Positions 1,631 to 52,462 of a stretch of DNA of 64,000 nucleotides are shown here, piece after piece (the stretch's first letter is position 1; each line of letters starts with the position of its first letter). The stretch is from Eledone cirrhosa (lineage: Eukaryota). The notes under the pieces were generated by a model. It made no database searches, was not told the DNA's origin, and was given only the letters and a program-made list of their open reading frames with translations. The translations under genes were made by a program, and so were the position numbers. The stretch is from NCBI GenBank assembly GCA_964016885.1, contig OZ024752.1, forward strand, positions 15,066,001-15,130,000, read 5' to 3'.

Positions 1631-1796
1631 AAAATTAGATGGATATATGAGATTGGGAAAAAAAGGAACTAAAGAAGAATTATCGTAAAACTAACAGTGA
1701 CAATTTGGAATCTATAAACTCGTACATCTTATGCTATAGACTACGTTTCTAGTTTTACAGTTTATCCAGGGGTTCACCTTACATATGATACATTTC

Positions 1797-4187
1797 CTAT
1801 TGGTTCTTAAAAGGGTAGGTTTTGCTGATCAGGGATTTTATGGTGGTTCCTGGCTTTTCTACCACCTTTATTTTTAAGTGGGTCTTTCTCAGGGCCTTTC
1901 TACACTGGTTAGCTAATGTCCCTCCAGGGGTGCCGTCCACAAACATGACACTCTGGTATCTCTGGTTGTCGTACCATGATGTGGCTTTCCCTATCTTATG
2001 TCTAGCCCTATCTAAGCTATTCCATGATTTGCTCCTGTATAATGGGCAAATTCCTTTCATGTCCAGTTCTATGAGGGTCTTATACTTTTCCATGGCTCCT
2101 TCGTATACTCTTTGGTTGTAGCCAGAGAACTGCATGCGGTTGATGAAGTGTTGAATGTGTCTTTCCATTTCTGTTGGGTCGCACATGCTGGACACATTCT
2201 TCATCACTCGTACCAAATCTGCGATCAGAATATTAAACTTAGCACTACTGGACATTGCTGAGTTTTTGAGTATCAGGTATTTGGAGGCCATGGGTTTAGC
2301 ATAGTGTGAGTGGAGAATTTGGGCTCTCTCGTCTATAGTGTTAATCCAGAGTTCTGTGTCTAATACAGGTAGTCTATTGTTAGGGTGTTTGGAAGGGAAG
2401 TCGATAGTCACAGTTATACTCTGGTGTATGGAATTAGCTATCCGCTGGATGCTTTCCATCGTGCTACGTTCTAAATCAAACTTGTTAGTGCTCTCTAGTG
2501 GGGGTGTTCTTATAACTATATTGATATCGTCTACATAACGAGAGTACATGATGAGGTCTATGGAGCTTTCATTAAGGAGATCTTTAAGTCTCCTTTCCCA
2601 CCATACCATGAAAAGGTTGGCAACATCACCAGCTATGCTGACGCCGATGGCTGCTCCCTCATTTTGGGCGTAGATTTTCTCATTGAACTTAAATATGTGG
2701 CCCTTTAGGGTAGTTTTGATACTAGCCCCTATTGCATGTGCGACCATTTTTCTTACCTGATCATTGTTTTGGGGGGTCCGTATAGCTTTGGTCCACCCAA
2801 TCCACCTTCCCATGGGAGTCTTTTTTGCCATTGAGGTTATGGTGGGGGGTCTACCTCTTATAGGTCTACTAGGGTAGAAACATATAAGGTCATGGCTGTC
2901 TAGGTAGTCAGTGTCGTAGGTAAGTCTAAGTAGGAGGCCCAGTTCGTCTGTGTCGACGTCGCAGAACTCCACCTCACTCTCAATGATCATCTCCACACAT
3001 CTTTTCACAGCAAAATCAATGTTAATGGATGGGTACAGTGACACCACATCCATGCTGCCTATTATGCAGTTGGATAGGCTCTTGTTTTTGTTGCACTCAC
3101 TGATTCTGCTGAGGATGTCCTCTGTACTGTCACATACATCTGGGGACATCTTGATTATGGGGCGTATAACCATTGAGAGGAAGTAGGAGATCCTGTAGTT
3201 GCTAGCTATATTATCTCCGCATACGGGTCCTGTTGGTGGTCCTGTTGTTGGGTCGTCGACTGTCTTGTGGTCTTTGCGGAGCCCATACAAGGGTGGTATG
3301 CCATTGTTAGACGCCTGGAAGTTGTTGGCAGTGCGTCTGCTTGGATTTAGGATGTCAGTCCACATCATCATGTGAGCGTTGAGAATTTTTTCTCTCCCAT
3401 CGTGTGTTTGTTGTGCAACTTCGCTCATGTTGGTGATGTGGGGTTGCATAGCCTCGATGTAGTTCGGAATGCTATCTATTGACATCCTACCAGACTTATC
3501 TGTGGGTAGACACACTACCTCACCATCCCTTGTGCGCTGCTTGAGGCTAACCAAGCCTTCTACAGGTTTCCTCCCAAGTTGCTGGGCCTCTGGTCTGCTC
3601 TGTCTCTTAGTATACCTGTCTACTATTTGTCTAATCTTATTTCTAGCTATGGTGAACTCTGCCTCTGTCTCGTCATCTATTTGTTGTGGTATGCAAACTC
3701 TTTTATTAAAGGGTAACCTCGTAGGATATATATTACCCATCTTATATGTTTTGTCAGCTGGGTTGAAAAATAGTTTCTCTAAGGGGTTGTCATTATATCT
3801 ATCGTCATAGTTGTGTGTGTTGCTATTGTTGTTATCAGGGTCGTTGTTGTTGTTTCTATCATTAGCATTATTATTATTGTTATGATTGCTAGATGTATTG
3901 TTGTTTACTTCACCGTTATTGTTGTTGTTGTTACTGTTATTTCTACCATTGTGGTTGTTACTTTTATTATGTTTCTTGTTTTTGTTGTGTCTATCATTGA
4001 TGTTGCTACATGTACTATTTCCATTATTACCACTGTGGTTATTGTTGTTGTTGTTCGTATTGTTACCGTTATTACTACTGTGGTCGCCGTTGCTGTGTCT
4101 GTGGTTAATGTTTCTATTATTATTATTATTGTGGTTGTTGTTGTTCTGTCTATCGCTAGTATTATTACCATTATCACTATTTCTCAC
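1797..4187 (-). CDS. PLE reverse transcriptase with Asn-rich N-terminus, frameshifted before the endonuclease
   Basis: Motifs PLYGLRKDHK, GSMDVVSLYPSI, QNEGAAIGVSIAGDVANLFM, YSRYVDD, LPVLD. An ~11-bp deletion relative to the inverted arm gives the stop after YPFKNQ. Confidence 0.9.
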   Translation of the reverse strand: MRNSDNGNNTSDRQNNNNHNNNNNRNINHRHSNGDHSSNNGNNTNNNNNNHSGNNGNSTCSNINDRHNKNKKHNKSNNHNGRNNSNNNNNNGEVNNNTSSNHNNNNNANDRNNNNDPDNNNSNTHNYDDRYNDNPLEKLFFNPADKTYKMGNIYPTRLPFNKRVCIPQQIDDETEAEFTIARNKIRQIVDRYTKRQSRPEAQQLGRKPVEGLVSLKQRTRDGEVVCLPTDKSGRMSIDSIPNYIEAMQPHITNMSEVAQQTHDGREKILNAHMMMWTDILNPSRRTANNFQASNNGIPPLYGLRKDHKTVDDPTTGPPTGPVCGDNIASNYRISYFLSMVIRPIIKMSPDVCDSTEDILSRISECNKNKSLSNCIIGSMDVVSLYPSINIDFAVKRCVEMIIESEVEFCDVDTDELGLLLRLTYDTDYLDSHDLICFYPSRPIRGRPPTITSMAKKTPMGRWIGWTKAIRTPQNNDQVRKMVAHAIGASIKTTLKGHIFKFNEKIYAQNEGAAIGVSIAGDVANLFMVWWERRLKDLLNESSIDLIMYSRYVDDINIVIRTPPLESTNKFDLERSTMESIQRIANSIHQSITVTIDFPSKHPNNRLPVLDTELWINTIDERAQILHSHYAKPMASKYLILKNSAMSSSAKFNILIADLVRVMKNVSSMCDPTEMERHIQHFINRMQFSGYNQRVYEGAMEKYKTLIELDMKGICPLYRSKSWNSLDRARHKIGKATSWYDNQRYQSVMFVDGTPGGTLANQCRKALRKTHLKIKVVEKPGTTIKSLISKTYPFKNQ

Positions 4188-4653
4188 TTTCCTGCTATTG
4201 TTATGGTTATGGCTGTTATTTCTATACCCAGAGTTATTGTTTATATTACTACTACCGTTATTATTGTTGTTGTTGTTTACCTTTGCATTCCGACGTATTT
4301 TTGTGAAACACTTTTCCAGCTACGTTTTGCACTCCATAGGGTTAATCTTTTTGTAGATGGCAAATTTTGGTGGTAACCGTAGGATTTGTTCTTCTTGTTC
4401 ACTGATTAAAGTGTTCCCATAGATATTTACTGTGTGGTCATTGGTAATTTCACCGGTAGTTTTACATCAGTCATACGGATATTGTCGATGTTATCTGGGT
4501 ATTTTTGAGAATATTCGATTTTCCTTTCTTGTAGTTTTTTCTTATTCATCCATTCTAATTTCTTCTTGAAATGCCTATTGCATTCGTTTTGAGCGTATTT
4601 CGTTTCACGTCGGATGACGCTCATGAAGTTATCTCTCTCGTTTGCTGTGATGA

Positions 4654-5296
4654 GAGCAAATCATGGAATAGCTTAGATAGGACTAGACATAAGATAGGGA
4701 AAGCCACATCATGGTACGACAACCAGAGATACCAGAGTGTCATGTTTGTGGACGGTACCCCTGGAGGGAAATTAGCTAACCAGTGTAGAAAGGCCCAGAG
4801 AAAGACCCACTTAAAAATAAAGGTGGTAGAAAATCCAGGAACCACCATAAAATCCCTGATCAGCAAAACCTACCCTTTTAAGAAAACCCACTGTACCAAT
4901 AGGAAATGTATCATATGTAAGGTGAACCCCCGGATAAACTGTAAAACTAGAAACGTAGTCTATAGCATAAGATGTACAGAGGGTACTTGCAGAAACATGA
5001 CAACAACATACATAGGTGAGACAGCGCGTAGCATAGGTGAAAGGATAGACAAACACTGGGGGGAACTAAAAGGACGAAAAAACGGGTCAGTACTATACGA
5101 ACATGCTAGACAACAACATGACGGTAACATAAACAACATAGAAATTAGAATAATATCTAAACATAGAAATGACCCAGCAGATAGGCAAATCAGAGAGGCC
5201 AGTGAAATAGAAATTAGAAGACCAAAGCTAAACAGAAAGAATGAGTGGAATAACAACAACACCCAAACAAACAACACTGACTTAAGAGAAGTATAA
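4654..5296 (+). CDS. PLE C-terminal Cys-rich linker plus GIY-YIG endonuclease (5'-truncated, inverted arm)
   Basis: CTNRKCIIC...VVYSIRC...YIGETARSIGERIDKH...HARQQH...RQIREA...PKLN. PLE homology starts at 4654 within ORF 4571-5296. Confidence 0.9.
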
Positions 5297-5554
5297 ATAA
5301 GTAAATAAAATAAGATAAATAAATACATACACAAGCACAATGACAACAAGCACATAAACACACACTAGTCACCCAGCAAACATAACACTATACACACTAG
5401 TCACACAGCAAACATAACACTATACACACACGCAAACGCATGCGCAAAGAAGACAACTAAAATAAAGAAATAAGCAAATAAATAAATAAATATATAGACA
5501 GACTGAATAAAAAATGGCGTAGGCATACAACACAACAGGAGGAAAATATAACAC

Positions 5555-5592
5555 CACTGACGATGTTGCAGATGTGCAACGAAAGATTTATG
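5555..5592 (+). ncRNA. Minimal type I hammerhead-like motif in the PLE1 3' region (degenerate stems I and III)
   Basis: ca-CTGACGA-t-gttgca-gatg-tgcaac-GAAA-gatt-TA-tg. A homologous motif lies at 13562-13600 (minus). Confidence 0.65.
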
Positions 5593-5855
5593 TAAAGTAT
5601 GTAAACTATATATATGTGTTTGTGTCTATATTGTTTCTGTATTATTTTTGACCGTCGGTCAGTCAATGGCAACAATGAGGACCGAGTAAGTTAGATTACA
5701 GATATAAAAGACGAAGCGAAAACCAACCAAACAGTGAGTGTGTTCTGTTATTAATTCTGGCAATATTACACAAATATGACCCTCCCCAAGTATAACAATA
5801 TTTGTTTCGACACACGATTTCATATAAAAAACCTCGATAAACTAATTCATCGCCG

Positions 5856-5889
<34 letters not shown>

Positions 5890-18859: not shown

Positions 18860-19041
18860 TCGCTCTACATGGCTGAATACAATAAATGTAATCTGAGATT
18901 TTCGAATATTAATAATAACATTCGATTCGTTCGCAAGTATGCCTACACAAGAGCAAAAATAAAGGGTTCATTCTACTGACATGGCTATAAAATTGAGGCT
19001 TGTTTGCATAATTGCGAAGGAATCAAATGTTTTTATTAATA
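18860..19041. mobile_element. Inverted-repeat non-autonomous element (short copy)
   Basis: tgtaatctgag..ttcgaatattaataa is matched by ttattaatattcgaaaaactcagattaca. Related copies at 19482-19894, 22815-23277 and 23335-23593. Confidence 0.75.
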
Positions 19042-19444: not shown

Positions 19445-19481
<37 letters not shown>

Positions 19482-19485
<4 letters not shown>

Positions 19486-23030: not shown

Positions 23031-23222
23031 TGGAGGATGATTGGCAGTATCGGTAGAGGGTCAGAGGCCATGCTTTACAACAAAGAGTTACGCCCCTTTA
23101 TGATCTGAGTTCAAATCCCGCCGTGGTTAACTTTGCCTTTCATCCTTACGGGGTCGATAAAATAAAGTATCAGTAATGCACTGGGATAATTGCTGGCCTT
23201 GTGCCAAAAGTAAAAACAATTA
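23031..23222 (+). mobile_element. SINE inserted in an inverted-repeat element
   Basis: Full SINE consensus interrupting ...tattatt|tattaatattcgaaaaaactcag. Confidence 0.9.
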
Positions 23223-23377
23223 TTAATATTCGAAAAAACTCAGATTACATTTATTGTATTCAGCCATGTAGAGCGATAAACTATTTGTTAGTTATTTGAA
23301 TATGGCAAGGTCGGCTATTAATCGCTCGTGTACATGCATAATTGCAAACGAATCGAATATCATTATTGATATTCGAA

Positions 23378-23563
23378 GAGCGGTGGATGGGCATTATCAG
23401 TAGAGGATCGGACGCCATGCTTTGAAGCAGAGTTGCCTCCCTTTATGATCTGAGTTCCAATCCCGCCAAGGTTAACTTTGCCTTTCATCCTTACGGAATG
23501 GATAAAATAAAGTACCAGTAATGCACTGGGATAATTGCTGGCCTTGTGCCAAAAGTATAAAGA
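23378..23563 (+). mobile_element. SINE with ~16-bp TSD (attatt(g/a)atatt(c/t)gaa)
   Basis: SINE consensus with duplicated flank. Confidence 0.9.
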
Positions 23564-24506
23564 ATTATTAATATTTGAAAAACTCAAATTACATAACAAA
23601 ATATATCCTTTGACAATGGCATAGATCAACTTCATTAAAGATTTAGAGGCCCCGTAAAAATCTATGTATTTGGTTAGTTAAAAAATAAATGGTCATTTAA
23701 AACACATATTACAATGATTGTTGTTGCCCCGAAAAAATAATTTTATAGACTATAAAAATAGTTTATATAATATATCCATCATGTGATTATTGTTAGTTGC
23801 GGTTTTCCGTAGCATTGGTATATAGAATGAACCCACTTAAGAGAAACAACTTTGGAAACATAACTACATCTACTATTGTTTAGGCTACATGCTATATCAC
23901 CAAATCACAATATTTACAATAGAAAAATATGGTGAATATGGTTATATATCAGTAGCTTGATACACAGAAATATTAATTGAAAGATTTTACATTCATTTCA
24001 TATTTACTTAAACCGGAAAATGTATTTCATTCGCAAAAAAATTCTCTGCATAAATAATTATTTTTCTTAGACAAATAAACGTAGGTTTATATCGTGTTGC
24101 AATATGACATGGATTGTATCGTTATCTTGCGATAAACAACGTCTAGAAATGAGTGATTATATGGCAGACTTGTAGAACGCAATTCCTAGATATATAAATG
24201 TATGTCTGCATAGAAATCCGACTCCTATTTTTTCATACTTATGCTTTCTTCTGGATCTCAATCAATCTTCATCTCGTTGAAAGAATTGGTCTCTCCAAAA
24301 CGAAAGAAATAAGAAAGAAAATTGAAATTAGATGTTAAGATGGATTTTAGGTCATGCAAACATAAATCTATTACTTCTGTATCTATACTTTAGTTCTAAT
24401 CAATCAATTATATATTATTTATCTATAAAAGATTTGCTTTGCCAAAAGGTTAGAATTAAAAAAAATCTATCATATATATATAATTGTCTGTGCTATGTAT
24501 TATGTA

Positions 24507-25472: not shown

Positions 25473-26059
25473 CTAGCAGTGGTACCCGTCGTTGCACGGG
25501 ATAAGGTATTTTGGAACGCGGTCCGCCAATAGACCTAAAAACTGCATGCCTAGACAATATGTAAAGAAAATAAACCGAATACTCTGACGGCTGGATAATA
25601 TTTAAGATTTTCCTCGATGAAGCAGGAAAAATGCAGGTTTTCACCTAATGCGGGCCCTAGGGGATCAAGAAAATGAATTTTTTTATGTGCATAATATGCC
25701 TTGAAATTTCGGGAAAATCGGCTAGACGTAACGCCTCCAAAAAAGCCCTAAGAAGCTGAAAAAAGGAAGTTTTTCACCTAATGCGGGCCCTAAGCCATAA
25801 CAAGTTGGATTTGCTTTGCTTACGGTATGAAGAAGAGACTGACTAATACATAGGTACAATTTCAAGGGAATCGGTCTGACGTAACGCCTCAAAAAAACCC
25901 CTTAAAATGTTAAACAAAAGAGTTTTTCACCTAATGCGGGCCCTAGGAGATACAAAAAGTTGATTTTTTTATGTGCGTAACACTCCCTCAAACATAAGTA
26001 ATACACATGTCAAGTTTGAAAAAAGTCGGTTGGGTACTTCTCGAGTTTAGGGATTCAAA

Positions 26060-26096
<37 letters not shown>

Positions 26097-26398
26097 CCTC
26101 AAGGAACTGACGTAATGCAGACAGTCAGACATACAGACAGATATTATAAGGGCGCCACGTTATAAGTATGTATCTATCTAAAAAGAGAAAGACTAAGAAT
26201 TATAGAGCGAGATCGCTAAATCGTCTAATGTTGTCTCTGGGTCATAGAAAATTTGAGATTTATTTTGCTCAGAACACTCCCTGAAACATAAGTATTACAT
26301 GTGTAAAGTTTGAAAACAGTCGGTTGGGTGTTTCTCGCGTTTTAGGGATTTGAACTCACACACACACAGACATACATCCTCAGTGTTATATATATAGA
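25473..26398 (-). mobile_element. Non-autonomous Helitron with three internal ~130-150-bp repeats
   Basis: 3' cccgtgcaacgacggg...tgCTAG; 5' TCtatatatataac; gtttt(t)cacctaatgcgggcccta at ~25637, ~25769 and ~25922; shares a block with 43430-43650. Confidence 0.75.
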
Positions 26399-26774
26399 CT
26401 AGCAGAAAACCGCCGACGGGTGGTTTTCTGCTAGTATATATATATATTACACACACAGAAATGTATATATATTTCTGTGTGTATATATATATTACACACA
26501 CAGAAATGTATATATATTTCTGTGTGTATATATATATATTTCTGTGTGTGTATATATATATATATTACACACACACAGAAATGTATATGTTTCTGTAGCA
26601 CCCCTCAATTCCCCCCTCTCTCCCTCCCACTATCCCCCTCTTGTAGTCTGTCTCTTTCTTTCACTCTCACTCTCTCTCTACGCGTGCCCAAAAAACATTC
26701 GCACGCGCGCACGTGTTTCCACTGTCGGACAGACAGACAAACAGAGAAATTGCTGGTTATATATTATAAGGAGA
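26399..26774 (-). mobile_element. Rearranged non-autonomous Helitron
   Basis: CTAG end abuts the previous element's TC start; 5' a|TCtccttataatatata followed by (TCTG)n; 38-bp terminal palindrome. Confidence 0.55.
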
Positions 26775-30179: not shown

Positions 30180-30261
30180 AACATGATTTACCTTTTTTGC
30201 TTTACCTTTCCTGCGGAAATACTTCAATTATATATATATGTATATATATTTATATATAAAT

Positions 30262-30369
30262 GGCAAAAATGAAATTTCATTTCTCACTCCTAGTACAGCT
30301 GATACTTAAATATAAGCATATTTACGTACATACACATATGTATACAGACGTACAGTAGTATGTATATAC

Positions 30370-30406
<37 letters not shown>

Positions 30407-30800
30407 TATGGGTTAACCGAACATTTATTATAATGCTCCGTTTGTTTGTAAACAAACATCCCGAATTAAGCGGTACAGTGTTCGGCAACCATCGTTGCCC
30501 TTTTGTTCAACACTGACAAAGGAACGATAAACAAGTTTCTAACTTATTAGCTTTCATCAGCATCGTATACCTTCCTGTCAGTCGATTGAACGTTTGAAAG
30601 TATATACTTTCCTTATGCATATTAACGGCTTGGCAGCCTAATTTGCATATCAAGTGAGTTAGTCGGCCGGGCGTACGGAAAACGATAAATGGAAAAAATG
30701 AAATTTCATTTCACACTCTTAGTACGGCTGATACTTAAATATTAGCATGTATACATACATACATATATGTATACAGACGTACAGTAGTATGTATATACAT
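30262..30800 (-). mobile_element. Retrozyme-like HHR repeat, family E (~430-bp monomer plus partial tandem)
   Basis: aaatgaaatttcattt recurs at ~30267 and ~30696; degenerate HHR 30524-30566; homologous to 34934-35432. Confidence 0.75.
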
Positions 30801-32705: not shown

Positions 32706-32711
32706 TATATA

Positions 32712-33983
32712 CAGGGTTTGGACAAAATAATGGAAACACCTTAAAATTTCAAACAAATTTATTTTAACATGGGTTAGGACCGCCTTCGGCAGTAATTACA
32801 GCTTGAATTCTACGAGGTATGGACTCGTACAAAGTTTGAATTGCTTTCAAAGGAATTTTTGTCCATTCTTCAGCTAAAACAGTCTCCAGTTCTTCTAATG
32901 ATGATGGTGGATGATATCGACTCCTTACTTGTTTTTCTAAAGTGCACCATAAATGTTCAATAATATTGAGATCTGGGGACTGTGGTGACCAGATAATATG
33001 TTCAACATCACTACAATGTTCCTCGTGTCATTCAGAAACAACTTTAGCTGTGTGAATTGGTACATTATCAACCTGAAAGATTGTGTTTCCCTCCGGAAAC
33101 AGTTCCGGAATCATAGGATGAATTTGATCAGATAAAATGCTTAAATTGCCTTGACTATTAATTCTGCCATGAAGAGAAACCATTGGGCCGGCGGATTTCC
33201 AAGATATAGCCCCCAGATAATCACAGATCCTCCTCCATGTTTAACAGTTGGAAGAAGGCAGTCTTGGTCAAATGTTTCTTTTGGCTGTCTCCACACGTAT
33301 ACTCGGCCGGTGGTCGGAAATAAGGTGAAGGATGACTCGTCCGACAAAATAACATTCTTCCACTGCTCTAGGGACCAATTCTGTAGGTTTTTACTCCACT
33401 CTAAACGCTTTGTAACGTTTGTTTTTGAAAGTAGTGGTTTTCTGATTGCAGTCTTCCCGTGAAATTCGGCTTGGTGTAGCTCCCGGTGAACAGTTTTTGT
33501 GGAAACTGTGTTCTCGAGGTGGTCATTATGCTCTGCAGTAATTTTGGGAGCTCTACTTTTGTGATCCTTTCTAACAATTCGCGTAAGAATCCGACGGTCC
33601 TTATCTGAAAGTTTTGGTTTTCTGCCGGCATTTTTTCGATGAGGAGGTTTTTCCCTCATTCTCAAAGGCTGTTATTACTTTCTAGACGTTACTTCTTGTT
33701 ACAGCAAACATTTCGGCTGTTTTCGTTACGCTAGCGCCTGCCATACGAGCACCAACAATTTGACCTCCTTGAAAGTCCGATAGATCTGTCATTTTAATAA
33801 ATTTTAAGTAACCTTTTTATGATGTTATCTGAAAAACAACTGCAATTTTAACAAAACATATTAAGCAACACTAATAATAAATAAAAAGACATAAAAATAA
33901 ACAAAGCTTTTGACGGTTTTATAGATATTTCAAAATTATGATGCTATGATGGTAGGTGTTTCCATTATTTTGTCCAACCCCTG
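32712..33983 (-). mobile_element. Tc1-family DNA transposon
   Basis: ~30-bp TIRs cagggtttggacaaaataatggaaacacct / aggtgtttccattattttgtccaacccctg, TA on both sides. Confidence 0.95.
32764..33792 (-). pseudogene. Tc1 DDE transposase, disrupted
   Basis: MTDLSDFQGGQIVGARMAG, ILSDES, PTVKHGGGSV, IFQVDN, WSPQSPDLNIIEHLW, with stops and frameshifts. Confidence 0.92.
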
Positions 33984-34001
33984 TATATATATACACAGAC
34001 A

Positions 34002-34094
<93 letters not shown>

Positions 34095-34099
34095 GTATA

Positions 34100-34190
<91 letters not shown>

Positions 34191-34191
34191 C

Positions 34192-34933
<742 letters not shown>

Positions 34934-35605
34934 GAAACAAAATGAAAACGAAATTTCATTTCTCACTCTTAGTATGGCACTTACTTAAATGTAAGTATGC
35001 ATGTATACGTACATACATATATGTATACAGACGTACAGTAGCATGCACATATATATATATATATACATATATATATACATATGCATACAGGTACACATAC
35101 ATATATGCACGTATCAGTTTAGCGGCGCTAACGTCGCTTTGTTCGTTTGTAAACAAACTGAACAGCCTGAATTTATGCCATTCGGTGTTAAGGCAACCAC
35201 GTCACCTTTTTGTTCAACACTGACACAGGAACGATGTACTAGTTTCAAGCTTGTTAGCTATCATCAGCACCGTTTACCCATCTGCCAGATAGTTGAACGT
35301 TCGAAAGTATATACTTTCCTTATGAAAATTAACGGCTGAGCAGCCTAATTTGCATATTGAGTGAGTTAAATCGGTCAGGCATACCGAAAACGATAAATTG
35401 AAACAAAATGAAAACGAAATTTCATTTCTCACGTTTGTTTACAAACGAACAAAGCGACGTTAGCGCCGCTAAACTGATACGTGCATATATGTATGTGTAC
35501 CTGTATGCATATGTATATATATATGTATATATATATATATATGTGCATGCTACTGTACGTCTGTATACATATATGTATGTACGTATACATGCATACTTAC
35601 ATTTA
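34934..35605 (-). mobile_element. Retrozyme-like HHR repeat, family E (~466-bp monomer, terminal direct repeat, inverted segment)
   Basis: gaaacaaaatgaaaacgaaatttcatttctcac at 34934 and 35400; about 35434-35605 is an inverted copy of about 34985-35157. Confidence 0.85.
35230..35274 (-). ncRNA. Minimal type I hammerhead ribozyme, family E
   Basis: aacggtg-CTGATGA-t-agct-aaca-agct-t-GAAA-ctag-TA-catcgtt. Stem I can extend through ctggca/tgtcag and gttcaac/gttgaac. Confidence 0.88.
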
Positions 35606-35685
35606 TATATATATGTATATATATATATGTATATATATATATGTATATATATATATGTATATATATATGTGTATATATATATATG

Positions 35686-35730
<45 letters not shown>

Positions 35731-35800
35731 GTATATATATATATATACATGTATATATATATATGTATGTATATATATATATATATGTACATATATATAT

Positions 35801-36628
35801 GAGAGACGTAAGATAAGAAAATTATAAAATTATAAAAAAATTATAAAATTGACTTACTTACTAAAATATCACTTCCAACTAATTAATTTCTGGAATGGAG
35901 TAAATATATTTTCCGAAGAACGTACAGAAAAGCATTCCGTCGTCAGGAAAGTCTCTTTTCATGTAAGTTTCCAGGCATAGCGAGGACTCTGGAAACTTAT
36001 TAAAAAAAAAATTCAGTGGAGAGAAAATAGCGAAGCGTGGACTGAAATCCTAGCCATTGAGAAAATCACTGTCTCTACGTCCGTGGCAAATTCAAAAAGA
36101 ATCAATCACGTGACATCGATGTCAATCAGTGGTAAGCGAGTTGTTAATAAGACGGCGGCCTGCCTACTACTATAGCAGCAGTCATGGCCAATATTGCTCG
36201 ACAAATGAATTGGAGATAATTATAAAGAATTTATATCTAGTAACATATATACATACAGATGCATACCAATGCTAGCAAGTATATAGGTTTTGTCTTAGTA
36301 ACATTGTGGTTCAATGCATGGGGTTGCAGAACAATAATATGAGAGACGTAAGATAAGAAAATTATAAAATTATAAAATTGAATTTGCCACGGACGTAGAG
36401 ACAGTGATTTTCTCAATGGCTAGGATTTCAGTCCACGCTTCGCTATTTCCTCTCCACTGAATTATTTTTTTAATAAGTTTCCAGGGTCCTCGTTCTGCCT
36501 GGAAACTTACATGAAAAGAGACTTTCCTGACGACGGAATGCTTTTTTGTATGTTCTTCGGAAAATATATTTACTCCATTCCAGAAACTAATTAGTTGGAA
36601 GTGATATTTTAGTAAGTAAGTCAATTTT

Positions 36629-36630
<2 letters not shown>
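35801..36630. mobile_element. Family D: permuted ~540-bp monomer plus inverted duplication, with HHR on both strands
   Basis: gagagacgtaagataagaaa at 35801 and 36341; 36380-36630 is an inverted copy of ~35845-36093; minus-strand HHR at 35871-35952. Confidence 0.88.
36521..36602 (+). ncRNA. Type I hammerhead ribozyme, family D
   Basis: actttc-CTGACGA-c-ggaatg...cattcc-a-GAAA-ctaattag-TT-ggaagt. Confidence 0.85.
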
Positions 36631-36702
<72 letters not shown>

Positions 36703-36722
36703 TGTACATATATATATATGAG

Positions 36723-36753
<31 letters not shown>

Positions 36754-37668
36754 TTATTTTTAACCTATAGGTCTCCTTTTTAACTTCTCTCCCTCTCTAT
36801 CATTGGTTACTGCTACTTACTACTGTACTACTGTCTCGGTTTCCCCCTCTCTATCGGTATCTAATTTTCTGGGGTTTTTTTCTTTTTCTATCTTGTAGCT
36901 ATTAACGCACTGTGGTGAGATGTACTGACTTTAATGCGTTGCAGCATCAGCGAACCACAGCAGACAGCCGAAGAGCGGGAATTGTCCTTATGTTTGTGTT
37001 TCTCTTACATTTTCCAAACAATATTTATTACTAACCACGCAGCGCCCTTGTCATTCTTAATTCATATATACATATATATATATATTTGGTGTATGAACAT
37101 TCAGTGTGTGTGTGTGTATGTGTGTGTGTGAGAGTGTGTAATTAGAAGACAGTATATTTGAATTCAACCACTTTCTATTTATTACGTAATCACTGTTATA
37201 CCTATTTCGATATCATCTATTATGTAATACTCAGACACGATGTTATCGCTTTTTTACATGGATAAATATTAGTGTTGTAAATTCTTATCTGGTGAGAGTT
37301 TACATTGTTTCTTCTCCACTCCACTTGTATACGGAATTACCCGATGATATTTTTTTTGTTCACGTCACTTAGGGCATACGTACTATTTGGCGCATAGTTG
37401 TTGCCAGTTCCTATTTGTCCGATCTCTGTTCGTGTCACCCACTCAATTGTCTCTTGATGGTTTTGTTGACACTCATTCCCGGTTCATCAGCTCATATATC
37501 TTAGAGAGAATGTGTTATCAAGAGCTGGCACCATGAAAGCAAATTCTTGGTAAAATATTTTCTTTTATGAGCGGCTAATATAATATGTCCAATGGTCTAG
37601 TATATATTCTTCAGTGCACATATATAAAGAACGTCATATAAATATTTACATATATATTGGGTCTGATC

Positions 37669-38115
37669 ATAATTGTTTCTACTTTTAGGCACAAGGCCAG
37701 CAATTACCCAGTTCATTACTGGTACTTTATTTTATCGACCCCGTAAGGATGAAAGGCAAAGTCAACCTCGGCGGGATTTGAACTCAGATCGTAAAGGGAC
37801 GTAACTATGCTGGAAAGCATGGCGTCCGACCCTCTACCGATACTGCCAATCCACCATGGAATCAAATTCCCATTGTCACTGCCTCCGTCTCTCTCGCCCT
37901 CCCCATCTCTCATTATTATATGTAATGGGGTGGATTGGCAGTATCGGTAGAGGGTCGGATGTCATGCTTTGATGTATAGCGTTACGGCCCTTTCCATTCT
38001 GAGTTCAAATCACGCCGAGGTCAACTTTGCCTTTCATCCTTACGCGGTCGATAAAATAAAGTACCAGTAATGTACTGGGTAATTGCTGGCCTTGTGCCAA
38101 AAGTAGAAACAATTA
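37669..38115. mobile_element. Head-to-head SINE pair (37669-37856 minus; 37927-38115 plus)
   Basis: Two full SINEs about 70 bp apart in divergent orientation. Confidence 0.92.
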
Positions 38116-38484
38116 TTATATGTAATGGGGACCCACGCAAATTGTTCATTTATTTCAGTATTTGTTCAGTCCTCAAGATAGGCAATAAAAATAAACACCA
38201 GCAACAGCAACATCAGTTGTAAGATTGTAACTATGACCTGGTGAGGTGTGTAAGTCGAACCCCAGCAGCACAATCAATAAGAGCTGTTAAAAGGGTGGAT
38301 GAACTCCTCAGAATCAACCATCACCCACCCCGACTATGGGTTAAATAAACTCACCAACACGCAATTGTCAAACGTTCACACAGGACATGACCAAAACCAA
38401 AAATAAAAGCTGTGGTAATTAATCAGCAAGGGGTTCCTCCAACACGAGTGAAGCGACCCTGAATTGGATTAGTAGAATGGAAAT

Positions 38485-39157
38485 AAGGGTTTCTGGTTTA
38501 GGCAAAAGGTCTGCAATTTCGGGGTAGGGAAAGGTCGATTAAATCAACTCCCGTGCATTACTTGAACTTTAATTTATCAACGCCTGAATGGATGAAATTC
38601 AAAGCTAACCACGGCAGGATTTGAACTCTGCACGTAAAGGGCCGCAACTCTCTGCTACGAAACAGGTTGTCCGACGCTCTACCTATGCTACCAATACAAC
38701 GCGCTGAAAAATGGAAATAATGATTTCTAGTCTAGGCACAAGGCCAGTAATTTGGGGGGGGGGTGAAAGTCGATTAAATCGACCCCAATACCTTACTGGT
38801 ACATTATTTTATCGACCCCGTAAGGATGATAGGCAAAATTAACCACGGCAGGATTTGAACTCAGAACGTAAACGGCCGCAACTCTCTGCTGCGAAGCAGG
38901 TTGTCCGACGCTCTACCGATACTACCAATCCACCGCGCTAAAAAATGGAAATAATAAATGCAATATAATAATTTTTTCTACTTTAGGCACAAGGCCAGCA
39001 ATTACCCAGTGCATTACTGGTACTTGATTTTATCGACCCTGTAAGGATGAAAGGCAAAGTTAACCTCGGCGGGAATTAAACTCAGATCGTAAAGGGACGT
39101 AACTCTGCTGGAAAGCATAATCCGACCCTCTATCGATACTGCCAATTCACCGCCCTT
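38485..39157 (-). mobile_element. Three tandem SINEs, two of a variant subfamily
   Basis: ~38485-38705 and ~38720-38940 carry an extra gtcgattaaatc block; ~38968-39157 is the standard type. Confidence 0.85.
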
Positions 39158-40415
39158 ATAATAATGATTATGTTAACGTTTCATACGACGGTGATAGAAT
39201 CCTGTCCCTCGTACCACCTGTAGTATCATATTCCTAGTCTTGATGAGGTCCCATTGGAACAGTAACCCATAATGTTGATTATTGGATGAAAGAAATAGAA
39301 GATGTGTGTATGAGTTTTGGTATATATGTGTAGAGAAATGTATATAGCTCGCATCATTAGCTCGATGTGACTGTATATGTGGCTATACACTTAATGTCGT
39401 CAATGATTTTTGTATTTTATAGCTCTTAGTCCATGTATATTTTTATCGGTAACATATATTTACTGCCTTTAATGCTATATTGGTTTTCATTTATAGTTTA
39501 CTGAAAGTATCAACCCAGTCTCCCTTCATTTTATTTCTTTCACTTTACTATAGGTTAATTCATTTTGCATTATTCCATTTTCTTTGTACGATATTATATA
39601 TCAAATGCTTATATCAGAACAATATTCTACTCCAGTAGTTTTACAATAATATTACATTTTATATCATTTCGTTGATTCTTACTGACACACAAAATAATTA
39701 ATTCTACCTATTCTACCAGTCATTAAATCACGCAGCAGGAAGCATCGCACGAAGCAATTGACACCTTACAGACACATACATGCTAACAATTCAATTCTCT
39801 TATGCTTGTGCTTAACCAACCACATCAATCAACGAATGAGAAATGTGGAAGGTTCGCATGATTTTAATGCAACACAACTAATGATCTTCTACTAGGCTTA
39901 TGATCATTGATTCTGTGCGTCTCTCAACGAGTCAGAACATAAAACTCATTCGTTCTATATAAGTATAAATCTCTTAATATCTCTCCGAAGCACAAAAAAG
40001 AAAATTATAAACTTTATATTTTATGGACATGTCTCCCACCCCGCCTCGGTGAACCTGAGACCAAGAGAAGGCTTAGATGATCCCACACAGTCCCATATAC
40101 ATAATTTACTAAACCAAAATGTTAGAAATGCGTGTTTTGATATGTTAATAGATGTCTACCGATTCATTCCTTCTGTTCCGTTTTTCTTATATTTTTTTTT
40201 ATATACAATATTCAATCTTAAAGAAAAACCGCAAAATATGATATGTTCACCAGTCCTGTGAAGATGAAAAAAAGAAAATATGTAAATCAATTCACAAGTT
40301 ATCAGGTCTCAATAAATCTTATCACACTTAATCTTCACCATACCGCACTCCCGTCCTCCCACCCCTCTCTCTATCTCTCACGTGTGTTTCTATGCACACA
40401 TACATACATTCAGAC

Positions 40416-43093: not shown

Positions 43094-43704
43094 CTAACAG
43101 AATGGCCCGGCGTTGCTCGAGATTTGCTCTAGGCTTCATATATATTTGATATATATTTATCCTTATCGAGCCTCGTGAAATAAATACATTTGTTTATATT
43201 TTGTTATTGTGTATGCAAAATATCTGTACACGAATATATAATTATATATATATATTATAATAACAGATTAAAGTTTAAGCAAAAATCGCTGCTTCCACCC
43301 TTAACGGGATCTTCTGAAACTAAAAGAATCAATCTGTGAACGCAGAAGTAAATATTTCGAAAAACGTTACATACTATATATATATATATATACACACACT
43401 ATATAAACATATATACACACACACAGCGTCATAATGTCGTAATGCAGACAGCCAGACATAAAGACAGATATTATAAGGGCGCAACGTAATATCTATGTAT
43501 CTGTCTAAAAAGAAAAACTAAGAATTATAGAGAGATCGCTAAATTGCCTAGGCAGTTAGAATTTGGAATATTCTTTGCTCAAAACACTTACAAGACACTA
43601 AGTATTACATGTGTAAAGTTTGAAAACAATCGGTTGGGTGGTTCTCGAGTTTTAGGGAGTCAGACAGACAGGCAGACAGAGATTATCTGTTGTAGATATA
43701 TAGA
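43094..43704 (-). mobile_element. Non-autonomous Helitron containing a PLE3 terminal fragment
   Basis: 3' ctcgagcaacgccggg...gTTAG|t; 5' a|TCtatatatc; (TCTG)n; 43270-43370 matches 11815-11915. Confidence 0.7.
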
Positions 43705-44442: not shown

Positions 44443-44625
44443 AATTGGCAGTATCGGTAGAGGGTCGGACGCCATGCTTTCCAGCATAGTTACGTCCCTT
44501 GACGGTCTGAGTTCAAATCCCGTCGAGGTTAACTTTGCCTTTCATCCTTACGGAGTCGATAAAATATAGTACCAGTAACGAACTGAGTAATTGCTGGCCT
44601 TGGGCCAAAAGTAGAAACAATTATT
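44443..44625 (+). mobile_element. SINE
   Basis: SINE consensus. Confidence 0.9.
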
Positions 44626-45735: not shown

Positions 45736-46553
45736 TATTATTATTATTATTACAGTTGCATTTATCTTGTTATGTTCATACGAGTTATCACCAAGTCACA
45801 ACCAGTGACCTCAAGAGACAACAAGGTCCGCCATGTTCAAGAAAGAACATACATACACACACATGCATCTTTAGGTGTTTAGACTTGTGATGTACTTATA
45901 TTGACAGAATCTTCTTTAGTATATGGGCAGTTCCCATTAGTACTATCTTTTGTATTTCTCCTATACGCGGGTTTCCTGGGATTTGCGATAAGTAATCATT
46001 AGACCCCTTAGGTATCATTCCTAGAGCGCCTACAACCACTGGTATTGTTTTAGTTCTCAATTTTCACATTTTTCCAATTTCTATCTCCAGGTCCTTATAC
46101 TTGCTCAATTTTTCAAATGTTTTTATAGATACATTCTTGTCTATTGGGTTTTGCCTTCACATTCAGTAGAGTGGACGACAGGCATGTCTGTAGCCGTCGT
46201 AGTTGTGGTGAAATCTACAGTGGCTGCTTTTAAACTTTTGACCAGAACGTTGTTTACCATTTCAAGGTAGGAAATTTCCATTTTTTTTTTTTTCGGTGGG
46301 TATCGATTCTTTTCGAAATTTTTAAAAATAAATCTGAATATTCGGGCTTAAAGCCCGAATATTGAGAGTATCCCTCTCTTGAAACCAAGTTGGGTACCTT
46401 ATGTTTCGTTAACGACAAGAAAATACAAACAATGATACTTTAAAACAGCGTAAAGTTAAGAACCTTTTCTCCCTCAGACTTGTACTGTCTTCACACATGT
46501 GCGTCCAAATAATAATAATAATAATTATAATAATGATAATAATAATAATAATG

Positions 46554-46582
<29 letters not shown>

Positions 46583-46587
<5 letters not shown>

Positions 46588-47845
46588 AGGAATTGTTAAG
46601 AACTGAATACATTCGGAGAGTAAGGAGCGTATTGAAGTCACATCTGAACAGCAGAAATGCCATAAGCGCAGTAAATTCCCGAGCTGTGTCTATTATTAGG
46701 TACAGTGCGGGAATTCTGAGATGGAATGTTGCTGAACAAAAAGAAATGGATAGGAAGACTAGGAAGCTATTGACTATCTACAACATGTTCCACAAGAGGA
46801 GTGATGTCGATAGACTCTACCTAAGGAGATCTGAGGGTGGAAGAGGTCTTATCAGCATAGAGGACTGTGTTCAGATGGAGAAAAACAACCTATACAAATA
46901 CGTGACCTATAGTAAGGAGCCAATGCTCAGAGCTGTACTGAAGGAGGGGACAGTAGGCCAGGGGATACCCAAGGAGGAAATAACATCAAGGAGGAAGAGC
47001 AGCCTTAAGGGAAAATCCCTTCATAGTACCTTCTTTGAGAAAACTGAATTTAGAGATCCACAGACATGGAACTGGTTGAGAAGAGGAGACCTCAAAAAGG
47101 CTACAGAAGGAATGCTAATGGCTGCGCAGGAGCAGGCCCTCAAAACGAAGTGGTTGAAGCACCATATCTACAAGGAGGAGGCTAGCCCACTGTGCAGGAT
47201 CTGTGGAGAGAGAGAGGTGACTGTGGCTCACATTGTGTCCGAGTGTAAACACCTAGCCCAGACCCACTATAAGGGCTGGAGACACGATGTGATGGGCAGG
47301 GTGATCCACTGGCACCTGTGCAAAGTAAACAATCTACCACATTCTGAGAAATGGTATGAGCATAGGCCAGAGGCGGTGATGGAGAACAGTCAGGTGAAGG
47401 TGCTGTGGGATTTTAGGATACAGACGGACAAAAAACTGGAACACAATAGACCTGACCTGGTGGTTGTGGACAAAGAAAAAAGATCGTGCCTGATTGTGGA
47501 TGTGGCCTGCCCGTTCGACACGAGAGTGCAAGAGAAGGAGAGGGAGAAAATTAACCGATACCAGGACCTAAAGTGGGAGGTGAAAAGGATTTGGAACTGC
47601 CATGAAGTCAAAGTGATCCCGATTGTCATAGGCGCACTGGGGACTATCTCCAAAGGTTTCCAGGGATGGTTAAAGAAAATCGGCCCCTTCACGCTTTTTG
47701 GAACGCTTCAAAAGGCATGCTTGCTTGGAACGGCAAGAACCCTCCGATACGTCCTGAATATCTGAGGCTGCAGGTAGTGGCTTGATATTCAATCCAACGG
47801 ACTTTCCAGTTAACCAACATCAATGACTGAGATTCAAGGAATAAC

Positions 47846-47875
<30 letters not shown>
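46583..47875 (+). mobile_element. R4/Dong-like LINE copy 1, 5'-truncated, within (TAA)n
   Basis: Near-identical to the 3' part of 48942-52334; (AAT)n on both sides. Confidence 0.95.
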
Positions 47876-47876
<1 letters not shown>

Positions 47877-48941
47877 GGAAGAAGACGCACGAGGTGACGG
47901 AGGTCATGAAATCGCTCCCGTAAGTTTTGAATTTTTAACATATTTAAACCATTTGTGAAATAACAACTCTTAGCACAAATGCTACGTAAAGCACCCGGCT
48001 TGAGCCCCAAAAAATTCGGACCCAAAATATATTGTTATAAGGCTCAAATATTCAAATATTCAACTTTGTATTGTACACTGTATATCCAAAAAAAAAAATG
48101 GCTATAAATGGAAGAAGAACCCCTCCCCTCCTCTCCTCTGGCTACACTATATAGGACAGCTAAACTCACCAACACCAGAAACTAGATACACCACCCACCC
48201 CATCATCTGTGTACACTAAACACAACAGCCAGATAACGACACATTTTCACCTTCACCGCCACCGCTCACTACGGCCATCATTACCACCACTATCCCATCA
48301 CCGCCGCCACCACCCCTTGACTCCGCTACAGCACCATCACTACAGTAATACGGTCACATCACCGCCACCACTGCCTCGGTATCAACATCACCACCACCAC
48401 TGTCTCAGTATCGCTAACGCCGCCAGTCTCCCACTTCCCTGCTGGCTGCTACTTCCACATTATAGAATTCCTACTACTAACAAAGAGGAAGGCATCAAAA
48501 TATATAGATAGACCCAAAAGAAAAAAGAAAAAACAAACAACAAAACCAAAGCAGCACGGCAACAACAGCAAAAAACGAGAAAAACAAACAGAGAAAAACA
48601 AAAACAAAAAAAAGAAACCCCAAAAACGTAAAGAAAATAAGAATGAAGAGAGAAGCAGGCGGACGGACAGAGAAGAGGGGGGAAAAAGTAAAACTTAAAA
48701 AACTAAAACTAAGTCAGACATTCGAACACTACATTACAATGAAACTTATGCTTATTCATTTCTGGGGCCCTTTCTGCCTGTGTGTTTGTTTGTTTATGTG
48801 TGTTCGTATACAGCGTGGCGATAATGCCACACAAGGGCCAAGTGGGATGGCGGATCCACAGATGGCTATGTAAACATACATTCGCCAATCCTCGATAAGA
48901 GTGTTTAAATATCGAACATAAACAGTTCGAATAACGGTGAA

Positions 48942-51900
48942 ATGGAGACTAGAACGTCATGTGACAGACTCTCACCCAACAGGTGCCCCCTGGCTCAGCA
49001 GCAGGAACCTGACTGTCAACCAAATACTGCTGATGTTGGAGGAAGGAGAAGAAGGAAAGGGGCCAGAACCAACTGGACGAAAGAATTGAATAGAACTGTT
49101 ATGCAATGCTACCTGAAAAGTAACCCCAAGGAGAGGGGCTACAGGAGACGGATGCATAACATCTGGAACGAGATTGGTTTATTTAAATTAGATGAACAAA
49201 AATTGGCCGGGCAGGCTCGGGTAATAAGAACTAATGGGTGGATAAGCGAGCTGGAACTGGAGGAACTGAGCAGAGAGAATGGCTTGGAGATGGCGGGTGT
49301 AGTATGCCAGACAAGCGAGCCGGTGGGAAATGAAGGTGAGGAGGTCCTGAGAACGGAGGAACCACCCGAAGCAGATAATGATCTGAGTACTGAGATAAAT
49401 AATACCTGGAACAGAGATACGGCCACTGAGGAGATGAATGCTGACGGGCTAGGACAAGATTCGGTTGACATCCTAAATTTAGTGGTAGATGAATTGAACA
49501 ATGATAGTGGGAGACCTATGAACCTAAGATTTGTAGACAGGAAAAAGTTAAAAGAAACAACAGCTAAGGTAAACAAAGTCATCCCATACCTTGAGGCGAG
49601 GAGCCTTCACCAGTGCAACAATATCCTCAGAGCAACAGCAAATACGGTGAGGAAACTACTTGGTATAAAAGCGAGAGGAAACAACAGACAAGAAAGAGCA
49701 GAACCGTGGTGGAAGAAGCGACTGAGTGGGCAAATCGGGGAAATGAGAAATGACATAGGAAAGCTTGAGTCACTGCTGAATGGGACACTAAAAAACATAG
49801 GCACTAAAAATAGACTGGAAATAAAATACAAAACTAGGAGTAAAAAGCTAAATATTATCATAGAGGAATTGAAGCAACGCATTGTAGCAAAGAGTGCAAA
49901 AATCAGGCGATACGAGAACAGAGTCAGTCAGTATAAACAGAACCGCATGTTCGACAACAACCAGAAGATGCTGTTTGGACAGCTTGAGGGCAAAGAAAGA
50001 GGCAACGACTTGATCCCTGGGGCGGAGCAAACTAAAACATTCTGGAGAGGAATATGGGAGCAGGATGTTAGACACAATGCCCAGGCAGGGTGGATTGAGA
50101 CAGTACAGAGGGAGATCGGTGAGCAGGCACAGCAACAGACTGATTTGAGTATCACAGTTGAAACTCTTAAGGGGCAAGCCAAAAAACTAACCAACTGGAA
50201 ATCACCAGGCCCAGATGGTGTGCAGGGGTATTGGATTAAACATCTAACATCCCTCCACCCGAAGCTGACGGCCATGTTCAATGAATGCTTGGTGTCGGGT
50301 GAGGTGCCAGAGTGGTTGACAAAAGGTACCACAGTTCTGATAATGAAAGACCGAATCAAGGGTAATGATGCTACCAACTATAGACCTATCACATGTCTGC
50401 CCGTAATGTGGAAACTGTTGACGAGCATTGTGTCTGAGGAAATCTACCATCACCTCCACACAAACAACTTGTTACCGGACGAACAGAAAGGATGCCGAAA
50501 GAAGTCACGTGGTACAAAGGACCAGTTGCTTATTGATAAGATGGTAATGGGGAATTGCAGGAGGAGACACACTGATCTTGCCATGGGATGGATAGACTAC
50601 AGAAAGGCATTTGACATGGTGCCTCATTCCTGGATCACCAAAAGCCTGGAGATCTTCAGGGTGGCGGATAACATCAGACAGTTGCTAGGCAGGAGTATGG
50701 GGTCCTGGGAGACAGAGTTGACATCAACTGGAGTATCCTTGGGAAGCGTGAAGATCAAGAGAGGTATCTTCCAGGGAGATAGCCTGTCACCTCTGTTGTT
50801 TGTCCTTGCCCTGATGCCCTTGACCATTATGCTGCGAAAAGTGAGAGCAGGATACAAGTTGGGAAGGGGAGAGCTTACCATCAATCACCTCCTCTTCATG
50901 GACGATCTCAAGCTCTTCGGGAAAAGTGAGAAGGAGTTGGATGTGCTTGTTGACACTGTCCGTATTTTCAGAAGTGATATATGTATGCAGTTTGGTATTG
51001 GTAAATGTGGAGTCATTGTGATGAAGAGGGGTAGGTTGAGCAGAAGTAACGGGATCCAGATACCAACAGGTGAGATGATAAAGGAAATTGACTCTGAGGA
51101 AGGATACAAGTATTTGGGCGTTCTGGAGGCTGATGGCATAAAGAACAAAAAAATGAAGGAATTGTTAAGAACTGAATACATTCGGAGAGTAAGGAGCGTA
51201 TTGAAGTCACATCTGAACAGCAGAAATGCCATAAGCGCAGTAAATTCCCGAGCTGTGTCTATTATTAGGTACAGTGCGGGAATTCTGAGATGGAATGTTG
51301 CTGAACAGAAAGAAATGGATAGGAAGACTAGGAAGCTATTGACTATCTACAACATGTTCCACAAGAGGAGTGATGTCGATAGACTCTACCTAAGGAGATC
51401 TGAGGGTGGAAGAGGTCTTATCAGCATAGAGGACTGTGTTCAGATGGAGAAAAACAACCTATACAAATACGTGACCTATAGTAAGGAGCCAATGCTCAGA
51501 GCTGTACTGAAGGAGGGGACAGTAGGCCAGGGGATGTCCAGGGAGGAAATAACATCAAGGAGGAAGAGCAGCCTTAAGGGAAAACCCCTTCATAGTACCT
51601 TCTTTGAGAAAACTGAATTTAGAGATCCACAGACATGGAACTGGTTGAGAAGAGGAGACCTCAAAAAGGCTACAGAAGGAATGCTAATGGCTGCGCAGGA
51701 GCAGGCCCTCAAAACGAAGTGGTTGAAGCACCATATCTACAAGGAGGAGGCCAACCCACTGTGCAGGATCTGTGGAGAGAGAGAGGAGACTGTGGCTCAC
51801 ATTGTGTCCGAGTGTAAATACCTAGCCCAAACCAACTATAAGGGCTGGAGACACGATGTGATGGGCAGGGTGATCCACTGGCACCTGTGCAAAGTAAACA

Positions 51901-52334: not shown

Positions 52335-52426
52335 GGCTGCAGGTAGTGGCTTGATATTCAATCCAACGGACTTTCCAGTTAACCAACATCAATGACTGAG
52401 ATTCAAGGAATAACAATAACAATAAC

Positions 52427-52461
<35 letters not shown>

Positions 52462-52462
<1 letters not shown>

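What the first reader, a model, noticed from the sequence alone, without database searches (positions are those of the whole stretch)
35801..36380. Permuted, slightly-more-than-monomer copies suggest circular or tandem RNA templates
Seen: family D repeats at 540 bp. The sequence that ends the 34503 copy is internal (~36225) here and runs on into the upstream part. Family E (430-466 bp) and family C (~293 bp) likewise occur as one monomer plus a partial repeat. Known: non-LTR retrozymes give monomer circRNAs through HHR cleavage. Inference: reverse transcription around a circle. A PLE-style partial tandem pLTR is the alternative.
Basis: partly seen in the sequence, partly recalled or inferred. 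Interest (0 to 1): 0.7.

Follow-up and report, generated by a model that had tools for sequence, protein, structure and literature searches.

The report
Two-armed Penelope-type hammerhead retrozyme
This repeat is one copy of an abundant, protein-free jumping element with a predicted self-cutting RNA motif, whose copies start at only two fixed points and often run past their own start, which likely records a Penelope-type enzyme copying one RNA, probably a circle, into both ends of a DNA break.

Summary
The 540-bp period is real, but the copies are not randomly permuted. Family D (a 19-mer of its ribozyme occurs 12,089 times in the genome) is a non-coding unit with a covarying type I hammerhead on the minus strand, inserted in (TA)n. 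Arms start at only two sites 120 nt apart and end anywhere; 47 of 48 classifiable head-to-head insertions pair one start of each kind. An ORF-bearing Penelope-like element (PLE) in the window shows the same footprint. So it is a non-LTR retrozyme moved by PLE machinery; 'circle' and 'PLE partial tandem' are not alternatives. Arms cross the predicted cut site 238 times without pile-up or scar, and laps share one haplotype: a re-ligated circle is favoured (about 0.6) but an uncleaved linear multimer is not excluded, and no RNA was seen. The 34503 copy is another subfamily (521 bp); family C does not belong. Extra: a replicated, age-independent 3-base error hot spot (35925-35927) arises at insertion, in this lineage only. 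The scan found the same two-armed layout before in other families of this genome.

The parts
35797..36377 (+). D1 arm 1: starts at fixed site A (35801, with 4 nt of AT microhomology to the flank), one full 540-bp unit plus 37 nt; cDNA sense, RNA sense is the minus strand (inferred from the ribozyme)
36378..36628 (-). D1 arm 2: inverted arm, unit positions about 45-295; atypical in lacking start B (lost or primed at an AT-rich spot)
35868..35956 (-). Type I hammerhead: CUGACGA core from 35946, 6-bp stem II extended by an internal loop and distal hairpin, palindromic stem III, predicted cut between 35878 and 35877
   Evidence: not hit by Rfam
36517..36605 (+). Second hammerhead copy in the inverted arm, predicted cut after 36596
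36221..36340 (+). 120-nt 'tail' between fixed start B (36221) and fixed start A
35925..35927 (+). Three-base hot spot (unit 125-127) that differs between laps of one insertion
35601..35800 (.). (TA)n target, left flank
36629..36741 (.). (TA)n target, right flank
34503..34784 (+). D2 subfamily (521-bp unit) arm starting at site B; hammerhead on minus strand, core from 34744, predicted cut after 34676
34791..34830 (-). D2 inverted arm starting at site A
34935..35600 (.). Family E insertion: 466-bp unit plus 32 nt, then inverted arm 35433-35600; minimal hammerhead on minus strand near 35230-35275; a separate family with the same layout
1722..5856 (.). ORF-bearing PLE (RT frame 1797-4319 minus; inverted arm 4654-5856 plus with GIY-YIG-like end) used as comparison; same two-end, head-to-head, (TA)n footprint; no sequence link to D

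Best explanation
Family D is a non-coding 520-570-bp mobile unit with a covarying type I hammerhead motif whose copies sit in (TA)n as two head-to-head arms starting at two fixed sites 120 nt apart, likely made by a Penelope-type reverse transcriptase priming from both strands of a target break on one RNA, probably a re-ligated monomer circle. Shown: fixed starts, one of each per insertion, variable inner ends, wrap-around past the start, one haplotype per insertion, no stop or scar at the predicted cut. Inferred: minus-strand transcription of arms with two or more ribozymes; cleavage as a dimer through the palindromic stem III; ligation to a circle; GIY-YIG nicking of (TA)n; priming through TA microhomology at A and B; joining of the two cDNAs by microhomology. 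The partner PLE is not identified.
For: Starts: 75 A, 61 B of 149 arms; pairs 47 AB, 1 BB, 0 AA among 48 classifiable of 59 (p about 2e-13); replicated 15 AB, 1 BB, 0 AA in 36 further loci; D2 18 of 18 two-armed loci mixed (counted by eye). (TA)n of 8 nt or more on both sides in 40 of 47 AB pairs. Same footprint in the ORF-bearing PLE: 10 head-to-head pairs with both ends visible pair end 5801 with 5844-5856 (one ambiguous locus left out). Hammerhead: 94% of cells paired, 9 of 20 pairs with two-sided change, four Watson-Crick types at one stem II pair in 16 subfamily representatives; core intact in 153 distinct sequences. 238 passes across the cut site, 2 of 199 ends within 4 nt versus 2.9 expected; no excess change there. 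Diagnostic sites concordant within insertions (121: 1/101, 155: 2/78, 221: 0/65, 272: 0/54, 282: 0/52; family heterozygosity 0.46-0.60); 21 haplotypes among 44 multi-lap insertions; 17 rare alleles shared by both arms. Literature: circles shown for other retrozymes (PMC7229834), circle template proposed for PLE tandems and dimer-only cleavage (PMC4209133), two RT starts define the PLE tail (PMC11167929).
Against: The 4-kb ORF-bearing PLE wraps around in the same way and my scan found no hammerhead inside it, so wrap-around does not need a ribozyme circle. A PLE RT used uncleaved RNA in vitro (PMC11167929). The longest arrays carry variants shared by only some adjacent laps (8 partial versus 13 complete), so DNA-level duplication or conversion shapes them too; 1 of 112 lap pairs has two different haplotypes, with the switch away from the cut site. 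No ADAR-type marks shared between laps in D1 (T>C 58 at 141 sites, A>G 80 at 195). Laps differ at 125-127, which a faithfully copied circle would not give. Within-arm and between-arm divergence are alike (1.81% vs 1.70%, p=0.47), which fits a circle and a young homogeneous linear source equally. No sequence link to the one PLE family tested.
Confidence: 0.6

Rival explanations
1. Same element and same PLE machinery, but the template is an uncleaved linear multimeric transcript of an existing tandem copy; arrays are regrown by unequal exchange.
For: ORF-bearing PLE wraps around without a detectable hammerhead; uncleaved RNA is the in vitro substrate (PMC11167929); mosaic variants in long arrays; family E has arrays over 3 kb.
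Against: Internal starts and 5' truncation shorten arrays each generation, yet 19 of 78 unbiased arms have two or more ribozyme passes across units of 471-571 bp and 21 haplotypes are homogeneous across laps; longest D array seen is about 4 laps; a conserved ribozyme that never ends an arm is hard to explain.
Confidence: 0.25
2. The template is a linear monomer and the RT jumps from its 5' end back to its 3' end; the hot spot at 125-127 is the jump scar.
For: All four bases and small indels at 126-127, more discordant within arms (20/46) than between arms (12/55); independent of age; one two-haplotype arm.
Against: No hot spot in D2 or D3; the site is not the ribozyme cut; length is mostly kept; non-majority alleles are often shared by several laps and both arms; only 2 of 143 ends fall at 115-135.
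Confidence: 0.1
3. A DNA-level repeat (satellite seed, MITE or Helitron-type) whose tandem and inverted forms arise by recombination or rolling-circle DNA replication.
For: Inverted arms resemble terminal inverted repeats; mosaic long arrays.
Against: Strand-specific RNA structure with compensatory change, one-sided truncation, unequal outer ends (A with B), and the same footprint as an RT-coding PLE.
Confidence: 0.05

Closest known systems
Metazoan non-LTR retrozymes (coral, mussel, axolotl; PMC7229834; bioRxiv 10.64898/2026.07.22.740005)
   Same: Non-coding tandem unit, one type I hammerhead per unit, GC under 50%, dispersed monomers to oligomers, co-occurring with PLEs.
   Different: Unit 520-570 bp (170-400 nt in PMC7229834; 51-972 in the preprint); long branched stem II; copies mostly partial and two-armed with two fixed starts, not described in the parts of those papers I read; cleavage and circles not tested here.
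Penelope-like elements, EN+ (PMC8557442; PAc in PMC11167929; hammerheads in PMC4209133)
   Same: Partial tandems, inverted 5'-truncated arm, tail at one end only, (TA)n targeting, hammerhead with an extra base after A9, long helix II and palindromic helix III.
   Different: No ORF; tail 120 nt rather than 30-40; both starts carry TA microhomology to the target, whereas PAc starts at non-homologous sites; an extra A before GAAA.
Non-autonomous Chlamys PLEs such as MRC1 (passage in PMC8557442)
   Same: ORF-less, pLTR-forming, multicopy head-to-tail insertions.
   Different: Those resemble their autonomous partner at the 3' end and most Chlamys lack hammerheads; no partner found here.

Membership tests
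non-LTR retrozyme | Short tandem unit with one type I hammerhead per unit | tested here: met
   periods 471-571
non-LTR retrozyme | Non-coding, GC under 50% | tested here: met
   longest ATG frame 27 aa, GC 0.346
non-LTR retrozyme | No LTR, PBS or PPT | tested here: inconclusive
   no terminal repeats other than the tandem unit; PBS and PPT not searched
non-LTR retrozyme | Ribozyme self-cleaves | not testable with these tools
   structure and covariation only
non-LTR retrozyme | Expressed as monomer linear and circular RNA | not testable with these tools
   needs RNA experiments
non-LTR retrozyme | Target-site duplication longer than 4 bp | tested here: inconclusive
   flanks are (TA)n on both sides
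autonomous PLE | ORF with RT and GIY-YIG endonuclease | tested here: not met
   so not filed as autonomous
non-autonomous PLE | Partial tandem with variable 5' truncation | tested here: met
non-autonomous PLE | Inverted 5'-truncated copy joined head to head | tested here: met
   59 pairs in 84 loci
non-autonomous PLE | Tail at one end only (two RT starts) | tested here: met
   47 of 48 and 15 of 16 mixed pairs; 120 nt instead of 30-40
non-autonomous PLE | Microsatellite targeting | tested here: met
   40 of 47 with (TA)n both sides
non-autonomous PLE | Sequence shared with an autonomous partner | tested here: inconclusive
   none with the one PLE family tested, 30 + 12 loci; other PLE families not tested
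Rfam hammerhead families | Score at gathering threshold | tested here: not met
   0 hits in the window; none among the 150 of 201 rows shown at E<=10; the long stem II insert is the likely reason (inference)

The most novel reading that the evidence does not exclude
D insertions are genomic fossils of rolling-circle reverse transcription: a PLE RT pair primes at two mapped sites on one ribozyme-made RNA circle and goes round up to four times, and the lineage-specific hot spot at 125-127 is a per-lap RT signature (a pause or backbone lesion inside the ribozyme's extended stem II) that records how the enzyme negotiates the folded ribozyme and where it gives up.
Probability: 0.35. Interest if true: 0.72.

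Novelty: new member of a known kind. Interest (0 to 1): 0.5.

Why it matters
Which enzyme copies animal retrozymes, where it starts and whether it runs round a circle have been proposed (PMC4209133, PMC7229834, PMC7761336) but, in the parts I read, not shown. Here the copies carry the PLE tail signature and give base-resolved start sites, so a 540-nt minimal substrate with two mapped starts can be tested directly with a PLE RT, as circle versus linear dimer. It also bears on why PLEs form tandem and inverted insertions at all.

Tried and rejected
Rfam: no hammerhead hit; found by motif scan instead. RNA: no RNA holder listed; contigs of four runs laid: X1 and X2 matched only AT-rich bits, X3 and X4 cover the stretch but are of unknown kind; nothing on expression, strand or circles. 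Random permutation of ends: rejected. Pile-up or scar at the ribozyme cut: none. ADAR marks shared between laps, a lead from earlier notes: not found in D1. Positions 208-209 looked hypervariable but are A-run length changes. CpG decay as the cause of the hot spot: rejected, CpG sites differ in only 4% of pairs and all four bases occur. A second hammerhead cutting at 126-127: no core in the right order (by eye). Hot spot in D2 or D3: absent. Partner PLE: only the window's first PLE family tested, no similarity. MFE folding of the isolated ribozyme is weak (z -0.4 to -1.7) and gives the ribozyme fold only for the D2 copy; the whole unit folds at z -4.3 with the core in another fold. Family C as a retrozyme: rejected. 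Earlier notes by sequence and near this place: nothing.

Full report
Setting. The window lies in a 3.0-Gb animal genome (G000, C12:15066001-15130000), rich in (TA)n arrays; it looks octopus-like (my inference, and the wording of earlier notes). Unit coordinates below are 1-540 = window 35801-36340.

Observation. A masked self-comparison shows 35797-35837 repeated exactly at 36337-36377, an inverted arm 36378-36624 at 96.8%, and the 34503 copy matching unit positions 421-540 and then 32-187 at about 80%. The 34503 copy belongs to a sister subfamily, D2, with a 521-bp unit (419 of 552 columns identical). Family E (34935-35600) has a 466-bp unit, a partial repeat, an inverted arm and a minimal hammerhead core. 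Family C has no hammerhead.

Anatomy across the genome. Three DNA or pattern searches plus one fetch after the first search gave 140 loci, merged to 84. Of 149 arms, 75 start at site A (position 1), 61 at site B (421), 12 elsewhere, 1 at an edge; inner ends are spread round the unit. Of 59 head-to-head pairs, 47 are A+B, 1 is B+B (one arm without a TA flank), none A+A; 11 have an odd or unreadable outer end, the window copy among them. 36 further loci gave 15 A+B, 1 B+B, 0 A+A, and all 18 two-armed D2 loci among 28 are mixed (by eye). (TA)n of 8 nt or more flanks both sides in 40 of 47 pairs; both starts share TA or AT letters with the flank. Inner joints overlap by 2 nt or more in 35 of 59 (alignment overlap, partly chance). 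55 of 135 A or B arms exceed one unit, the longest 2145 nt; this sample is biased to long arms by the first query. In the first 100 of 12,089 exact matches to a ribozyme 19-mer, 78 arms have 1, 2, 3 and 4 passes in 59, 17, 1 and 1 cases, with periods 471-571 (exact matches undercount passes).

Ribozyme. Rfam misses it. A motif scan finds a type I hammerhead on the minus strand, cut predicted at 35877|35878. Across 16 subfamily representatives 94.3% of cells pair, 9 of 20 pairs change on both sides, slid controls pair 35-48% (the structure was derived from these sequences, and relatedness inflates the shuffle test). In 153 distinct sequences one stem II pair takes four Watson-Crick types; a C and an A face each other at the base of stem II in 149; stem III is a palindrome in 146. 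The extra base after A9, long helix II and palindromic helix III are described for PLE hammerheads, with dimer-dependent cleavage (PMC4209133, passages).

PLE footprint. Partial tandems, an inverted truncated arm, a tail at one end and (TA)n bias define PLE insertions (PMC8557442, passages); the tail lies between two RT start sites (PMC11167929, parts 1-2 of 4). The window's own RT-coding element (weak RVT_1 match; very numerous young copies) ends at 5801 or 5844-5856, one of each in the 10 head-to-head pairs where both ends were visible, sits in (TA)n, and full-length copies run from the ORF start into their own 3' end. It shares no sequence with D1 or D2 beyond AT-rich bits, so the partner is unnamed.

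Template tests. (a) A cleaved linear unit would stop the RT at 77|78. 123 of 135 arms cross it; over 199 arms there are 238 crossings and 2 ends within 4 nt, against 2.9 expected; no excess change there. (b) All laps and both arms share diagnostic alleles (0-2.6% discordant at five sites with heterozygosity 0.46-0.60); shared non-consensus bases are 0.98% within arms, 0.97% between arms, 0.19% between loci; 21 haplotypes occur among 44 multi-lap insertions. New variants therefore pass through a one-unit bottleneck and are re-multiplied, as a circle would do. (c) Against: partial sharing among adjacent laps in the longest arrays, one two-haplotype arm among 112 lap pairs, no ADAR asymmetry in D1, and wrap-around in a PLE with no detectable hammerhead. 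I put the circle at about 0.6.

Hot spot. Positions 125-127 differ between laps of one insertion in 18/101, 32/101 and 10/93 pairs, against 1.5% at non-CpG and 4% at CpG sites, with all four bases at 126 in every common haplotype. It does not grow with age (14 of 26 younger, 14 of 26 older insertions) and repeats in the 36 new loci (14/35 at 126). Passes followed by an arm end within 25 nt read the majority allele in 17 of 19 cases, others in 44 of 198 (p 7e-9); from the last-but-one to the last pass the change is towards the majority allele 15 times and away twice; five control sites show no such link. Lap pairs within one insertion are not independent. The site is the first pair of the distal hairpin in stem II. 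It is absent from D2 and D3. Most likely (inference, low confidence) an RT pause with slip errors from neighbouring bases, perhaps plus A-to-I editing at 125; a junction scar is the rival.

Mechanism. Shown: the points above. Inferred: an arm with two or more ribozymes is transcribed on the minus strand; dimeric hammerheads cut out a 540-nt unit that a host ligase closes (as for other retrozymes, PMC7229834, parts 2-4 of 6); a PLE protein nicks both strands of (TA)n; each end primes on the RNA, one at A and one at B; each cDNA runs a variable distance, sometimes several laps; the two join by microhomology.

Comparison and novelty. It fits the non-LTR retrozymes on every feature testable here and works like a non-autonomous PLE, the link argued by distribution and phylogeny in bioRxiv 10.64898/2026.07.22.740005 (parts 1-3 of 5) and suggested in PMC7761336 (passages). 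Six searches showed no paper describing retrozyme insertions with two fixed starts or this family; an octopus repeat annotation (PMC13282606, passages) lists PLEs without it in the passages seen. The library lacks most subscription papers and I saw no supplements. Earlier notes of this scan report the same two-armed layout for other families of this genome; I had reached it before looking. Their editing-mark argument did not hold for D1. Verdict: new member of a known kind, with useful mechanistic footprints; interest 0.5.

Noticed in passing
window 1722-5856: Young two-armed RT/GIY-YIG PLE; full ORF about 1217 aa in other copies; two 3' ends about 45-55 nt apart; no hammerhead found inside by my scan; very high copy number (36,826 first-look candidates).
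   Followed up: partly
window 8036-9584 and 10382-11065, 13802-14194: Fragments of further PLE-type RT and GIY-YIG frames (weak Pfam matches); possible partner families, not tested.
   Followed up: no
window 19480-19900, related 18858-19061 and 22814-23032: Another hammerhead-bearing repeat (core at 19697, plus strand) with partial repeat and inverted pieces.
   Followed up: no
window 59407-59623: Inverted pair carrying a hammerhead with a 39-nt stem II region (core at 59503, minus strand); a further long-stem-II family.
   Followed up: no
window 30256-30785: E-like copy with 430-bp period and a minimal hammerhead (core at 30560, minus strand).
   Followed up: partly
window 34034-36741: D2, E and D1 insertions stacked one after another in (TA)n, so insertions seem to breed targets for the next.
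   Followed up: partly
window 25955-26446 and 43435-43704: Family C: (CA)n-containing repeat ending in a GC-rich hairpin at 26387-26446; resembles a non-autonomous Helitron-type element (recalled, untested).
   Followed up: partly
window 9514-9618, 15318-15558, 22999-23594, 37666-39167, 44444-44625, 61557-61734 and others: Abundant SINE-like repeat, several copies in inverted pairs and one 234-bp tandem at 38476-38955.
   Followed up: no
window 46413-57644: Non-LTR retrotransposon (1141-aa RT frame) in a 2728-bp tandem of 5'-truncated copies separated by (AAT)n.
   Followed up: no
window 32708-33987: Tc1-like transposon with 34-bp terminal inverted repeats.
   Followed up: no
L288:1535-2443: One arm whose two laps are different D3 haplotypes; the switch lies about 185-215 nt past the ribozyme motif.
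   Followed up: yes
L175, L182, L184, L186: Family E forms arrays longer than 3 kb, unlike D (at most about 4 laps seen).
   Followed up: no
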